Both the position numbers and the translations under genes were made by a program. The notes beneath the pieces are model-generated. The model worked only from the letters and a program-made list of their open reading frames with translations. It was not told where the DNA came from and searched no databases. From NCBI GenBank assembly GCA_026396015.1, contig JAPLXP010000004.1, forward strand, positions 1,546 to 65,545: a DNA stretch of 64,000 nt, written 5' to 3'. The stretch is from Candidatus Nomurabacteria bacterium. Lineage in GTDB: Bacteria > Patescibacteriota > Minisyncoccia > Phycocordibacterales > UBA9973. Of this stretch, positions 32,617 to 34,665 are shown in pieces. Each line of letters starts with the position of its first letter. Positions within the stretch are counted from its first letter, which is position 1.

Positions 32617-32738
32617 GCGGGCGATGGAGGGTAATCTTTCCTTACAGGAACAGTACACCTTTTCTAAATTCTTACAGAATCACAGAAAAGCTTTCCGATT
32701 CCTCCACGCGAGCAACGCAGGTTGCTCGCTATCGCCCG
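32617..32738 (-). repeat. tRNA-Trp echo element, copy A
   Basis: Begins with the reverse complement of the tRNA-Trp 3' end (GCGGGCGATGGAGG). It ends with TCCGATTCCTCCA - hairpin(GCAG loop) - ATCGCCCG. It is ~95% identical to copy C. Confidence 0.6.
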
Positions 32739-32828
32739 CAGTTTTTCACTGCATTCCAAACTGCGGGTAGTGTGGTTCGCGGTTGGAACTCAAATTAAGT
32801 TAGGTTGTTAAATAGACCTCCAATTTTT

Positions 32829-33341
32829 TTAAGGCAATTTTCTCATCGAAGTTTCATTTTGTTCATCCATCTCCATTTCACCCCACGTTTTTTTCTTTCC
32901 TTCCGGAATGAAAACCGGGTCCCAGCCAAAACCTCTATCTCCTCTTGGTTTTACTGAAATAGTTCCCTTTATTTCTCCTTCAAATACCCTAAAGTCTTTT
33001 CCATCATACAGACCAAAGCACACTTTTGCCAGTGCTGATCTATCTTCATAAGAGTCTAAAATTTTACATAATCCTTCATTATCTAGTTCTATTAGAAACC
33101 ATTTTATTAAAGGACCAGGTAATTTCCCTAAAGCATTGAAAGTTAGAGAAGTATCTTCAACAAGGACAGGCGAGTTTGTCTGCTTATATGCTTGCTCCGC
33201 TTTATATTTTGTAACTTCCTGTAGATCAAGAGATTGAATTTCGGGAATATCTAATTTGAGATGTTTAATAGGATACCCTAAGTGTCGGCTTAATTGTTCA
33301 GCCTTTGAAGAATTCCCAGTAATAAATGTTATGTCTTTCAC
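32829..33341 (-). CDS. rdgB: non-canonical purine NTP pyrophosphatase (Ham1/RdgB/ITPase)
   Basis: ITFITGNSSKAEQ and FGWDPVFIP motifs. GTG start. Confidence 0.85.
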   Translation of the reverse strand: MKDITFITGNSSKAEQLSRHLGYPIKHLKLDIPEIQSLDLQEVTKYKAEQAYKQTNSPVLVEDTSLTFNALGKLPGPLIKWFLIELDNEGLCKILDSYEDRSALAKVCFGLYDGKDFRVFEGEIKGTISVKPRGDRGFGWDPVFIPEGKKKTWGEMEMDEQNETSMRKLP

Positions 33342-33414
33342 TTTTTGATTATACCAAAGTTCTAAAGTACAGAACAGTGCATGAAAGGATGTTTACAGAA
33401 TATGGTTTAAAAAT

Positions 33415-33478
33415 GCGGGCGCGAGGCAAGGTAATCTTTCCTTACAGGAACAGAAAACAGGTAAGGTTATTTTTAACT
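33415..33478 (-). repeat. tRNA-Trp echo element, truncated copy B
   Basis: GCGGGCGCGAGGCAAGGTAATCTTTCCTTACAGGAACAG shares the first ~40 nt of copies A and C. Confidence 0.5.
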
Positions 33479-33615
33479 CTTTCATTATATCAAATCGATG
33501 CATCTCGAACACTTAAAAAGTGATATGGATGATAGAGATATAAATTACACTCCTCTGTAATGTTTCCCTTAAAACTAGGAAGTTTTAAGGGATGCATATT
33601 ATGGCAGGCGAACAA

Positions 33616-34461
33616 TTATATAGAATTAGCTAAAATCTTATTCTTTGTATTTTGAGCATATTCAGCAACAGCATCTTTAGGTTTATTTATTGAACTTGGG
33701 ATTATAAGTATTTGACTGGGATTTTTTACTAATATTTCCAAAACCTCTTCAGCTTTTTTTGTAAATTCCTTATCTGGATTATTACTTTCTCCAAACACAC
33801 TATCAAATAGTGGCATTTCGGGGATATGTTTTATAAATTTTTCAGGAATAATCATCCAAATTCCTCTTCTTATAGACTCCAGCATCATACCTTTTAAAGT
33901 CCCCGCGTATCGAGGTTTTTTAGCATTCACAAATGCTGGGAATACGCTACCATGATTAGCATAACCAAAAGCACTCTTTGGAAGAGGTGTAGTGTACACT
34001 CCACTTCCAAAAGTGGTTCCTGATGCTGTTCCTCTTTTGTAGAAATCAGTATTGTAGAAATCAGAAAATGTTCTAATGTCTCTAGTAACTCCTCTGAACA
34101 AAACAAGGGGTTCTTGATTTTGGTCGATAACCTTACTTGAAGATTTAGAATCATTTTGCCAGTCCCCAAACCACTTTTTAAAACTTTCTGTTCTAGCGAT
34201 TTTCCACCATAATTCACTTTGCTTACCTAAATTAGAAACAAGACCATCAGGTGAAACCAATAATTCACCTTTTTCATTTCTATCAGATTCCCTGATTTCC
34301 AAATTCTCAGCTTCACTAAGAATAGCGACTGAAAGATTTTCCATATCTAAAGGTTGCTCGATCCTTAAATTTTTCTTCACTTCCTGATTAGAATCAATTT
34401 TATTCCTGAATAGTCCACCTTCCATTGAATTTTTCATACTAACATTATACCAAAGTTCCAA
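33616..34461 (-). CDS. hypothetical protein
   Basis: 281-aa ORF. Alternative ATG starts at 34437 and 34425 would fit the conserved extended -10 block better. Confidence 0.5.
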   Translation of the reverse strand: MELWYNVSMKNSMEGGLFRNKIDSNQEVKKNLRIEQPLDMENLSVAILSEAENLEIRESDRNEKGELLVSPDGLVSNLGKQSELWWKIARTESFKKWFGDWQNDSKSSSKVIDQNQEPLVLFRGVTRDIRTFSDFYNTDFYKRGTASGTTFGSGVYTTPLPKSAFGYANHGSVFPAFVNAKKPRYAGTLKGMMLESIRRGIWMIIPEKFIKHIPEMPLFDSVFGESNNPDKEFTKKAEEVLEILVKNPSQILIIPSSINKPKDAVAEYAQNTKNKILANSI

Positions 34462-34512
34462 AGTAAAAACAGTGTATAAAATGAAACTTATTTTATATAG
34501 CTTAAAAAATCT

Positions 34513-34633
34513 GTGGGCGATGGAGGGTAATCTTTCCTTACAGGAACAGTATACCTTTTCTAAATTCTTACAGAATTACAGAAAAGCTTTCCGATTCCTC
34601 CACGCGAGCAACGCAGGTTGCTCGCTATCGCCC
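34513..34633 (-). repeat. tRNA-Trp echo element, copy C (immediately downstream of tRNA-Trp)
   Basis: Same architecture as copy A. Confidence 0.6.
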
Positions 34634-34665
34634 AACAAAAAAACAGCCGAAGCTGTTTTTACGTG

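What the first reader, a model, noticed from the sequence alone, without database searches (positions are those of the whole stretch)
32617..34665. Tandem cassette-like array bounded by three copies of the tRNA-Trp echo element, replacing expected rpmG-tRNA-Trp-secE-nusG synteny
In many bacteria rpmG and tRNA-Trp are followed by secE-nusG-rplK. Here rpmG (34825-34989) and tRNA-Trp are followed instead by three units of the form [echo element][gene].
- Copy C is followed by a 281-aa hypothetical.
- Truncated copy B is followed by the Ham1 ITPase.
- Copy A is followed by a 5-gene operon (frameshifted P-loop kinase, SnoaL-like, hypothetical, DUF, MazG-like) that runs to a strong terminator at ~30000.

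Copies A and C are ~95% identical over ~120 nt. Each begins with the reverse complement of the tRNA-Trp 3' end, as attL/attR-type repeats would after serial site-specific integration. No integrase is present. The arrangement of gene plus structured ~120-nt imperfect palindrome also recalls integron cassettes with attC sites.
Basis: partly seen in the sequence, partly recalled or inferred. Interest (0 to 1): 0.75.

Follow-up and report, generated by a model that had tools for sequence, protein, structure and literature searches.

The report
tRNA-tail-copying structured insertion element family
The three "echo" repeats are real copies of an apparently undescribed ~125-nt structured DNA element that sits just after many tRNA genes in Patescibacteria and copies the last 13-16 bases of whichever tRNA it follows; it matters because it looks like a new small insertion module marking gene-gain hotspots, not an integron.

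Summary
Two intact copies (A, C; 98% identical over 127 nt) and one 5'-truncated copy (B) lie downstream of rpmG and tRNA-Trp, separated by an ART-like gene and Ham1.

The element is not specific to this locus. A covariance model finds diverged members after tRNA-Arg(CCT) and tRNA-Leu(CAA) in the same window, plus a fragment in the uvrA leader. It gives 74 same-strand matches across the window and 53 public Patescibacteria loci.

Each copy has a conserved core: hairpin H1, then a three-way junction with hairpins H2 and H3. The core is framed by helices that reproduce the T-stem and acceptor stem of the adjacent tRNA. The element's 3' end copies tRNA nt 61-73 (mean 11.8 of 13 identical, 31 pairs, at least 7 tRNA species). 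Stems covary strongly. Rfam 15 has no match.

Orthologous sites occur empty and occupied. Tandem arrays of unlike subtypes and arrays with kb-sized cargo also occur.

Best reading (0.45): a non-autonomous, structure-dependent insertion module targeting the T-loop/T-stem boundary of tRNA genes. The Trp array would come from repeated insertion or duplication in a variable island. The main rival (0.3) is a tRNA-mimicking non-coding RNA.

Integron membership fails. The "lost secE-nusG synteny" idea is unsupported.

The parts
34825..34989 (-). rpmG (ribosomal protein L33), followed by its terminator hairpin at 34794-34826
   Evidence: ORF; PF00471; terminator.
34665..34736 (-). tRNA-Trp(CCA). Its 3' part (T-stem 3' strand CCTCC, acceptor 3' strand ATCGCCC, discriminator G) is the sequence that the elements copy.
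34639..34660 (-). Terminator-type hairpin T1 (AAAAACAGC-TTCG-GCTGTTTTT) plus T-run, between tRNA-Trp and copy C. The same spacer occurs in relative L006.
   Evidence: Read.
34506..34635 (-). Copy C, intact (136 bits). P1a is GGGCGAT/ATCGCCC, H1 is GCGAGCAAC-CTGC-GTTGCTCGC, P1b is GGAGG/CCTCC. J1, H2, J2 (GGTATACTG), H3 (TTCCT-GTA-AGGAA) and J3 (AGATTAC) follow. The 3' end is the tRNA-tail copy X1 at 34512-34526.
34444..34465 (-). Promoter-like box TACTTTGGAACTTTGGTATAAT just before the ART start. It is repeated at 33348-33369 before Ham1.
   Evidence: (repeat D7).
33616..34461 (-). ART-PolyVal-like ORF (281 aa). The database homologue starts at the ATG at 34437 and has 273 aa.
   Evidence: Homologues lie after tRNA-Trp or tRNA-His in other genomes.
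33410..33512 (-). Copy B, decayed (43.5 bits). Only the end of J2, H3, J3 and a diverged tail copy (CCTTGCCTCGCGCCCGCA) are recognisable, about 33412-33458.
32829..33341 (-). Ham1/RdgB-type dITP/XTP pyrophosphatase.
32738..32767 (-). Hairpin spacer before copy A (CCCGCAGTTT ... AAACTGCGGG). Its 5' arm is the last 7 nt of the tRNA-Trp tail. The same spacer follows tRNA-Trp directly in L002 and precedes the element in L012, where the contig ends before any tRNA.
32610..32739 (-). Copy A, intact (130 bits). Its tail copy X3 is at 32616-32630.
30014..32592 (-). Downstream gene run: split P-loop/AAA_33-like ORF (32413-32592 and 32067-32480), DUF4440, a 324-aa weak kinase-like ORF, DUF3750 and a 99-aa ORF. 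It ends at the terminator at 29988-30018.
6454..6585 (-). Diverged family member (79 bits) directly after tRNA-Arg(CCT) (6622-6694). Its tail CCCGCTGAGGGCACA copies that tRNA.
36405..36517 (+). Diverged family member (45.6 bits, no H3) directly after tRNA-Leu(CAA) (36291-36373). Its tail CGATTCTCCCCCTGGGCACAAA copies that tRNA.
62017..62077 (-). Core fragment (H2-J2-H3, 44.7 bits) in the 5' leader of uvrA. The 3' strand of H3, AGGAG, lies 10 nt before the ATG.

Best explanation
The "echo" is one member, matched to tRNA-Trp, of a family of small (about 110-145 nt, sometimes longer) non-coding, structure-dependent insertion modules. They occupy the 3' flank of tRNA genes in Patescibacteria.

Shown:
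- Read in the tRNA's direction, a module is: [spacer, usually a terminator hairpin] - X' (complement of the tRNA acceptor 3' strand) - hairpin H1 - T5' (complement of the T-stem 3' strand) - J1 (AAnCGAAAAG) - hairpin H2 (variable tip) - J2 (GGTATACTG) - hairpin H3 (GTA triloop) - J3 ((A/C)GAT..) - X.
- X is a copy of tRNA nt 61-73, sometimes with a few trailer bases.
- Folded as a single strand, X'/T5' pair with X. This rebuilds a duplex copy of the tRNA gene's last ~13-21 bp, capped by the conserved junction.
- Relative to empty orthologous sites, the module plus one copy of nt 61-76 is extra DNA at the T-loop/T-stem boundary (nt 60/61). The tRNA stays intact and receives its own terminator.

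Inferred:
- A trans-acting, still unidentified recombinase or replication-linked template-switch process recognises the conserved junction and the tRNA-like helix. It recombines the module with the matching tRNA gene.
- Repeated rounds, or slippage between the X repeats, give tandem arrays. DNA lying between two modules then looks like a cassette.
- In this window the tRNA-Trp module is present 2.4 times (C, B, A) inside a variable island between tRNA-Trp and miaA. A and C are kept 98% identical by recent duplication or gene conversion. B is a decaying copy.
For: 1. Family. A 21-mer of the core occurs in 8 species-representative genomes; five are named Patescibacteria lineages (Paceibacterota, Nomurabacteria, Yonathbacteria), one is Minisyncoccia, one Saccharibacteria and one an unclassified MAG. 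A degenerate 30-mer occurs in 46 metagenome contigs, with 1 apparent chance hit. The covariance model R1 gives 77 matches in 424 kb; three of them (22.6-28.8 bits) are opposite-strand echoes of strong matches. Three of the window's five tRNAs carry a member.
2. tRNA linkage. 46 matches lie within 120 nt downstream and co-oriented with a tRNA, 6 lie after another element, and 14 have neither.
3. Tail copying. X equals the adjacent tRNA's nt 61-73 at a mean of 11.8 of 13 positions over 31 distinct pairs. The tRNAs include Trp, Arg (GCG, CCG, TCT), Glu, His and Gly. Seven different tRNA-Arg(GCG) tails are matched, 13/13 in five and 9-12/13 in two.
4. Structure. On a plain MAFFT alignment, 83% of cells are paired versus 67% when shuffled, and the covariation score is 0.43 versus 0.17 (0 of 500 shuffles reach it; slid controls 0.10-0.15). 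On the model-fitted alignment, 38 of 39 pairs show double changes and H3 is 100% paired. RNAalifold independently recovers H1, P1b, H2 and H3.
5. Insertion polymorphism. The flank after X in L054 is collinear with the flank after the intact, element-free tRNA-Arg(TCT) in L003 and L040. tRNA-Trp-ART in L058 lacks the element that lies between them in the window.
6. Repeat-like behaviour. There are homotypic tandems (L025, L043), tandems of unlike subtypes in both orders (L044, L019), truncated copies (B, the uvrA leader, L046) and cargo-bearing arrays (the window; L028 with three copies and 2.6-4.3 kb of accessory genes).
7. Templating. X' and T5' are exact complements of X, not copies of the tRNA's own 5' strands. 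The tRNA-Trp T-stem is GGGGG/CCTCC with one G.U, whereas the element has GGAGG. tRNA-Glu begins GGCCCTA, whereas the element has GACCCTA.
8. Transcription context. A canonical terminator usually separates the tRNA from the element, and a second one often follows X. This fits an insert that brings its own terminator better than a co-transcribed RNA.
9. Variable island at this locus.
Against: - No recombinase, transposase or reverse transcriptase is linked to the element. None turned up in the window or among 66 neighbouring ORFs of 16 loci, apart from one IS110 gene.
- No copy was found on viral contigs, and no autonomous version was seen.
- Subtypes track the tRNA type across genomes. The Leu type occurs in both the window and L002; the Trp type occurs in the window, L002, L006 and L012. 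This points to old, mostly vertical residence rather than recent hopping.
- Compensatory changes among apparently orthologous copies, and near-invariant junction bases across distant lineages, are what a host-useful RNA would show.
- G.U outnumbers A.C 98 to 49 in the helices on the tRNA-sense strand, as expected for an RNA, though also for top-strand ssDNA.
- In L037, L009/L040 and L002-Leu the element abuts the tRNA with no terminator, so it must be co-transcribed there.
- A 150-nt unit is too small for a double-stranded circular intermediate.
- Empty versus occupied sites could reflect loss rather than gain.
Confidence: 0.45

Rival explanations
1. A tRNA-mimicking non-coding RNA. The element would be transcribed by read-through from the tRNA promoter. 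It would fold into an acceptor/T-stem minihelix identical to its tRNA, with H1 in place of the D and anticodon arms and a conserved three-way junction in place of the T-loop. It would then act in tRNA-related biology, for example as a decoy or sensor for an enzyme or toxin that reads the acceptor/T helix, or as a processing signal that frees downstream, nearly leaderless mRNAs. The Trp array would be a local duplication.
For: - Strong covariation in four helices and invariant junction bases.
- Very stable fold, z about -6.5.
- G.U to A.C ratio of 2:1 to 3:1 on the tRNA-sense strand.
- Always co-oriented with the tRNA.
- Some copies abut the tRNA with no terminator (L037, L009, L002-Leu).
- Subtype tracks tRNA type across genomes, so residence is long-term in streamlined genomes.
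- The tail identity stops at the discriminator/CA in most pairs, which is the functional tRNA end.
- Downstream ORFs often start 2-25 nt after X (rluA in L014, L017, L047).
- A core copy in the uvrA leader has its H3 3' strand as the likely Shine-Dalgarno sequence.
Against: - A canonical terminator lies between tRNA and element in most loci.
- No promoter room exists between them.
- This model does not explain the truncated, tandem-heterotypic and cargo-bearing arrays, or the empty/occupied sites.
- The acceptor-tail copy is kept even where X' is missing and it has no partner (L037).
- No Rfam family matches.
- No conserved neighbouring protein was found.
Confidence: 0.3
2. Ordinary attL/attR scars of classical integrase-borne islands. 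Double-stranded att sites whose arms happen to be conserved would have been left after serial integration and decay of islands at tRNA genes.
For: - Direct repeats of the tRNA 3' end.
- A variable island at tRNA-Trp.
- In L030, L046 and L048, and before copy A, only the last 7-10 nt of the tRNA tail remain upstream of the element. This is expected if other DNA integrated at the extreme 3' end.
Against: - No integrase was found in the window or next to 16 other loci.
- Most copies bracket nothing but a ~30-nt spacer.
- Double-stranded arm sites do not show compensatory changes in four hairpins.
- The same core serves at least 9 different tRNA species.
Confidence: 0.12
3. An integron-like system in the strict sense: attC sites bounding promoterless cassettes inserted by an IntI at an attI next to the tRNA.
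For: - Imperfect palindrome of attC-like size.
- Gene-plus-element units in this window and in L028.
Against: - No IntI was found.
- There are no R''/R' core sites; the ends vary with the tRNA.
- ART and Ham1 carry their own promoter-like TGGTATAAT boxes.
- Unpaired junctions are sequence-conserved, the opposite of attC.
- Most elements have no cassette.
Confidence: 0.03

Closest known systems
Folded single-stranded recombination sites: integron attC, and the CTX-phi attP(+) hairpin used by XerCD
   Same: A single strand folds into an imperfect hairpin that rebuilds a duplex look-alike of the target site. Structure is conserved through compensatory changes. Such sites occur in arrays, and the recombinase is supplied in trans (established knowledge of these systems). 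The fold and the arrays are shown here.
   Different: The rebuilt duplex is the 3' end of a tRNA gene and changes with the tRNA. Unpaired junction bases are strongly sequence-conserved. No IntI or Xer link is shown. There are no GTTRRRY boxes or dif-like sites. Most units carry no gene.
tRNA-gene-targeting genomic islands and their miniature derivatives (CIME-type att-only remnants, tandem accretion)
   Same: They insert at the 3' part of a tRNA gene, restore the tRNA, duplicate the tRNA tail, form tandem arrays and create a variable island.
   Different: The unit is only about 150 nt. It is found in many lineages and at many tRNA species with one shared core. It contains covarying hairpins. 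No integrase was found.
tRNA-like structures and tRNA mimics (viral 3' TLS, mascRNA, bacterial YrlA Y RNA)
   Same: An acceptor/T-stem-like coaxial helix with other arms replaced.
   Different: The T-loop, D arm and anticodon arm are all absent. The helix sequence is copied from the neighbouring tRNA gene. No YrlA/Y RNA or other Rfam hit was obtained. The element is encoded many times per genome, directly behind tRNA genes.
MITEs, REP/BIME-type intergenic repeats and IS200/IS605-derived palindromic elements
   Same: Small, non-coding, hairpin-rich, multi-copy, intergenic elements found after terminators, with truncated and tandem copies.
   Different: The terminal inverted and direct repeats are target-derived and tRNA-specific. 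The duplication is 13-26 nt. No Y1/RAYT or DDE transposase is linked. Copy number per genome appears tied to the tRNA set.

Membership tests
Integron (attC cassette array) | IntI tyrosine recombinase with attI and Pc next to the array | tested here: not met
   No integrase family appeared among the window ORFs scanned (18 low-ranked families were not displayed). None appeared among 66 ORFs next to 16 other loci.
Integron (attC cassette array) | attC core sites R'' RYYYAAC and R' GTTRRRY at the ends of an imperfect palindrome | tested here: not met
   The ends are the tRNA tail and its complement, and they differ for Trp, Arg, Glu, His, Gly and Leu. GTTGGGC at copy C comes from the terminator T-run and is absent at copy A.
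Integron (attC cassette array) | Structure conserved, sequence of unpaired parts free; promoterless cassettes | tested here: not met
   The junctions J1, J2 and J3 are nearly invariant. ART and Ham1 are preceded by TGGTATAAT boxes.
tRNA-integrated genomic island (attL/attR) | Direct repeat identical to the tRNA 3' part at both ends | tested here: met
tRNA-integrated genomic island (attL/attR) | Integrase gene at one end of the inserted DNA | tested here: not met
tRNA-integrated genomic island (attL/attR) | Presence/absence at orthologous tRNA sites | tested here: met
   L054 versus L003/L040. Window versus L012/L002 island content. L058 tRNA-Trp-ART has no element.
Any Rfam 15 RNA family (T-box, tmRNA, Y RNA, ribozymes, riboswitches, group I introns) | Covariance-model score at or above the gathering threshold | tested here: not met
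   Only tRNAs were reported in the window and in 8 further loci. At E<=10 nothing meaningful fell on the element.
tRNA gene or pseudogene | Cloverleaf with D arm, anticodon arm and T-loop | tested here: not met
   ARAGORN and RF00005 do not call the element. H1 replaces the D and anticodon arms. Similarity of the DNA upstream of A and B to tRNA-Trp is no better than shuffles.
MITE / non-autonomous transposon | Terminal inverted repeats plus target-site duplication, with a related autonomous element encoding a transposase | tested here: inconclusive
   An inverted repeat (X'/X) and a 13-26-nt duplication exist, but both are target-derived. No autonomous relative was found in genome, metagenome or viral scans.
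Folded-ssDNA att site exploiting a host recombinase (CTX-phi type) | Recombination of the folded strand with the duplex target by a host recombinase | not testable with these tools
   Only the fold and its likeness to the target are shown.

The most novel reading that the evidence does not exclude
Patescibacteria carry an undescribed class of tRNA-specific structured modules that rebuild, in single-stranded form, the acceptor/T-stem end of their own tRNA gene. One possibility is that these modules are a recombinase-in-trans, integron-like landing and gene-capture platform spread over many tRNA genes. The other is that they encode a new family of tRNA-mimic RNAs with a conserved catalytic or ligand-binding three-way junction acting in tRNA maturation or protection. 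Either would be a new kind of element, not a variant of attC, att scars or known tRNA-like structures.
Probability: 0.35. Interest if true: 0.85.

Novelty: new variant of a known kind. Interest (0 to 1): 0.68.

Why it matters
If correct, much of the intergenic DNA behind tRNA genes in a very large, poorly understood bacterial radiation is taken up by one modular structured element.

That element would explain where accessory genes accumulate in these tiny genomes. It would also offer a natural example of a nucleic-acid fold that imitates a tRNA gene end.

It gives a concrete covariance model for annotating these regions. The recurrent contig breaks at these repeats (L001, L064) hint that they also fragment assemblies.

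It makes two open questions testable. How do mobile modules retarget among tRNA genes without a linked recombinase? And do CPR bacteria use tRNA-mimic RNAs?

Tried and rejected
- **Rfam.** Searched at gathering threshold and at E<=10 on the locus, and at gathering threshold on 8 other loci. Only tRNAs were found.
- **T-loop intron idea.** The upstream tRNA is already complete and usually terminated. The Patescibacteria group I intron paper concerns position 35/36.
- **Hairpin-ribozyme loop B likeness (from memory).** GUAUA..UUAC and GAAA resemble it, but the position matching the catalytic A is G in many copies (GGUGUACUG), so this was dropped.
- **Hammerhead, twister, T-box, SRP, retron and box C/D readings.** No defining motifs or partner genes were present.
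- **Decayed tRNA-Trp genes upstream of A and B.** Alignment scores were no better than shuffles. L058 was marginal (28 of 2000).
- **Link between repeat length and helix extension.** The test was noisy and showed no correlation.
- **Viral contigs.** Two specific patterns gave 0 hits. A third gave 20 hits, none confirmed by the model.
- **Integrase or transposase search.** Run in the window and around 16 loci; only one IS110 gene was found.
- **PADLOC and NCBIfam on the cargo genes.** No defence system was found.
- **Exact-protein look-ups for strain variants.** Only short contigs that break at the repeats were returned.
- **Literature.** Five searches found no description of such an element.
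Full report
**1. What is at the locus**

Read on the minus strand, the window carries in order:
- alr (36187-35036)
- rpmG (34989-34825) with a terminator
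- tRNA-Trp(CCA) (34736-34665)
- a terminator-type hairpin
- copy C
- a TGGTATAAT-type promoter-like box
- an ART-PolyVal-like ORF
- truncated copy B, followed by the same promoter-like box
- Ham1
- a hairpin spacer
- copy A
- a split P-loop ORF, DUF4440, a 324-aa ORF, DUF3750 and a 99-aa ORF
- a strong bidirectional terminator at 29988-30018
- SIMPL, then convergent miaA

.

A and C are 98% identical over 127 nt. B shares the 3' ~50 nt. The 15-nt tRNA tail CCTCCATCGCCCGCA is repeated in the tRNA's orientation at the 3' end of A and of C. The source is a Candidatus Nomurabacteria MAG; the ART protein is 100% identical to NTX85_02175. Two corrections apply: identity is higher than stated, and the last ORF gave no MazG hit.

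**2. Anatomy of one copy**

In the tRNA's direction, copy C reads:

GGGCGAT-A-[GCGAGCAAC CTGC GTTGCTCGC]-GT-GGAGG-AATCGGAAAG-[H2]-GGTATACTG-[TTCCT GTA AGGAA]-AGATTAC-CCTCC-ATCGCCC-A.

- The outer helix P1a has the sequence of the tRNA-Trp acceptor stem.
- The next helix, P1b, is the T-stem. Here it is made perfectly Watson-Crick (GGAGG, whereas the tRNA has GGGGG with one G.U).
- H1 sits where the D and anticodon arms would be.
- A three-way junction (H2, H3) sits where the T-loop would be.
- The fold is far more stable than shuffles, on either strand (z = -6.2 to -6.6).
- No Rfam 15 family matches.

**3. It is a family, and it goes with tRNAs in general**

- A 21-mer of the core occurs in 8 species-representative genomes. 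Five carry Patescibacteria lineage names (Paceibacterota, Nomurabacteria, Yonathbacteria), one is Minisyncoccia, one Saccharibacteria and one an unclassified MAG. It occurs in no viral contig.
- A degenerate pattern that left the H3 stem free found 46 metagenome contigs, one of them a chance hit.
- In these loci the core is conserved but the ends differ. They always equal the 3' end of the tRNA lying 10-60 nt upstream on the same strand: Trp, Arg (GCG, CCG, TCT), Glu, His or Gly.
- Over 31 distinct tRNA/element pairs, the element's last 13 framed positions (T-stem 3' strand, acceptor 3' strand, discriminator) match the tRNA at a mean of 11.8 of 13. There are seven different versions for tRNA-Arg(GCG) alone. 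Beyond the discriminator, identity mostly ends after CA or CCA.
- A covariance model built from 48 sequences finds further members in the window: a diverged one after tRNA-Arg(CCT) (6454-6585), a shorter one after tRNA-Leu(CAA) (36405-36517), and a core fragment in the uvrA leader (62017-62077).
- Over all held loci the model gives 77 matches, three of which are weak opposite-strand echoes of strong matches. Of the 74 others, 46 lie directly after a tRNA, 6 after another element, 8 are in contigs too short to tell, and 14 have neither.
- In this sample, tRNA-Ser(TGA) (0 of 11), Leu(GAG) (0 of 4), Phe and Ala lack the element.
- Subtypes differ in J3: AGATTAC; CGATAAG plus an extra hairpin; or CGATT/CGATATT, which continues the likeness into the T-loop. 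The subtype tracks the tRNA type across genomes. For example, the Leu type occurs in both the window and L002.

**4. The structure is under selection**

- On a plain MAFFT alignment, the structure drawn from copy C has 83% of cells paired (67% when shuffled). 32 of 39 pairs show double changes. The covariation score is 0.43 versus 0.17 shuffled (0 of 500 reach it), and 0.10-0.15 when partners are slid.
- RNAalifold recovers H1, P1b, H2 and H3 independently.
- On the model-fitted alignment of 68 distinct sequences, 38 of 39 pairs covary and H3 is 100% paired with five covarying pairs. That alignment leans towards the model.
- G.U exceeds A.C by 98 to 49 on the tRNA-sense strand. The folded strand is therefore the sense strand, as RNA or as top-strand DNA.

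**5. Evidence that it is inserted DNA**

- *Empty versus occupied sites.* In L054, the DNA from the element's tail copy onward is collinear with the DNA from the tail of the intact tRNA-Arg(TCT) onward in L003 and L040, which lack the element. The core stands where the tRNA body would be. The extra DNA is therefore the module plus one copy of nt 61-76, at the nt 60/61 boundary.
- *tRNA-Trp and ART.* In L058, tRNA-Trp is followed after 50 nt by an ART homologue with no element. The window has T1 plus copy C between them.
- *Terminators.* A canonical terminator usually sits between tRNA and element, and another often follows the tail copy. This is expected if the insert brings a replacement tail and terminator and displaces the original ones.
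- *Templated complements.* X' and T5' are exact complements of the tail, not copies of the tRNA's own 5' strands.
- *Repeat-like behaviour.* The family shows near-identical tandems (L025, L043), tandems of different subtypes in both orders and even nested cores within one closing helix (L044, L019, L061), truncated copies, and arrays with cargo. L028 has three co-oriented copies separated by 4.3 and 2.6 kb. The cargo there includes an amidohydrolase, RNHCP, two radical-SAM genes, an RNase H-like gene and DUF6602, with DUF3800 nearby.

**6. The Trp locus itself**

- The closest syntenic relative, L012 (miaA 61% and the neighbouring 100-aa ORF 70% identical), has only an inositol-monophosphatase gene between its Trp-type element and miaA.
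- L002 has alr-rpmG-tRNA-Trp-element-Vut_1 transporter-a 113-aa ORF-miaA.
- The window has about 5 kb in that position.
- Copy A keeps the hairpin spacer seen in L002 and L012. Copy C keeps the terminator spacer of L006.
- The stretch from H3 through the tail copy to the promoter-like box is homologous after C and after B.
- A claimed decayed tRNA upstream of A and B did not survive a shuffle test.
- The array is thus three units of the Trp-specific module within a variable island. The exact order of events, and whether Ham1 and ART are incomers, remain unresolved.
- ART homologues sit just after tRNA-Trp or tRNA-His in three other genomes, but are not bounded by a second tail copy there.
- secE-nusG does not follow tRNA-Trp in any relative examined, so no ancestral synteny was replaced.

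**7. Mechanism: shown and inferred**

Shown:
- the fold;
- its identity to the tRNA gene end;
- the co-variation;
- the insertion point;
- the arrays.

Inferred:
- that a single-stranded form presents a duplex look-alike of the tRNA gene's last 13-21 bp, capped by a protein-recognised junction;
- that this form recombines with the tRNA gene, in analogy to attC and the CTX-phi attP hairpin, or spreads by template switching at the terminator palindrome.

No enzyme is identified. No integrase, transposase or reverse transcriptase is linked, apart from one IS110 gene abutting a truncated copy in L044. No viral copy was found.

The main rival is a tRNA-mimic RNA made by read-through. It explains the long vertical residence, the invariant junctions and the copies that abut the tRNA. 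It does not explain the terminators, the polymorphism, the heterotypic arrays, or tail copies that have no pairing partner.

I put the insertion-module reading at 0.45, the RNA reading at 0.30, plain integrase scars at 0.12 and a true integron at 0.03.

**8. Novelty**

Nothing in Rfam 15 or in five literature searches describes this element. It works most like a folded att site or a miniature tRNA-targeting island, but it fails the defining tests for integron membership. I file it as a new variant of known kinds (tRNA-targeting insertion elements and tRNA mimics), with a real chance that it is a new class.

Noticed in passing
window 62017-62140 (- strand), upstream of uvrA 59296-62007: A core fragment of the element (H1-like hairpin, H2, GGTATACTG, H3) forms most of the uvrA 5' leader behind a TTGTCA/TATACT promoter-like pair. 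The 3' strand of H3 is AGGAG, 10 nt before the ATG, so the hairpin would sequester the likely ribosome-binding site.
   Followed up: partly
L017 3690-3845 (-) and 9363-9520 (+); L046 555-610; L024 after 7501; L061 5866-5915: A second conserved tRNA-trailing module (GTGCCGACCGCAGTGATG ... CTGCGAAAATTT-hairpin-AAATTATTTGTAGCCAC) follows two tRNA-Arg genes. Its GAAAATTT-hairpin-AAATTATT part also occurs inside or after members of the main family. tRNA trailers in these genomes seem to be built from several modules.
   Followed up: no
L044 2699-3757 (-): An IS110-family transposase gene (DEDD_Tnp_IS110 plus Transposase_20) starts about 100 nt after a type-2 element whose tRNA-Lys tail copy is cut short (CCTACCGA|ATCATT). 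The missing tail was not found at the other end.
   Followed up: partly
L058 5875-6759; L061 5578-6858; L056 3935-6757; window 33616-34736: Homologues (45-50% identity) of the ART-PolyVal-like protein lie immediately downstream of tRNA-Trp or tRNA-His in four unrelated contigs, with or without the element. This is a recurrent tRNA-ART linkage.
   Followed up: partly
window 33348-33369, 34444-34465, 6430-6440, 36640-36650: Extended -10 boxes (TTTGGTATAAT) lie 6-22 nt before start codons with no room for a Shine-Dalgarno sequence. This suggests that leaderless or near-leaderless mRNAs are common in this organism.
   Followed up: no
window 38687-40198 (+): A MurA-like (EPSP_synthase family) protein carries an N-terminal Cro/C1-type HTH domain. 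L002 has a 78%-identical homologue.
   Followed up: no
window 32067-32592 (-): The P-loop (AAA_33-like) gene right after copy A is split into two overlapping frames. This is either a frameshift or a sequencing error.
   Followed up: no
L001 (1618 nt) and L064 (1837 nt): Short-read assemblies from two other samples that carry identical rpmG or Ham1 proteins break exactly at the tRNA-Trp/element repeats. The repeats therefore fragment assemblies.
   Followed up: partly
window, two ORFs among those: Two ORFs match TrwB/VirD4-type coupling-protein domains (TrwB_AAD_bind, T4SS-DNA_transf). Which ORFs they are was not resolved.
   Followed up: no
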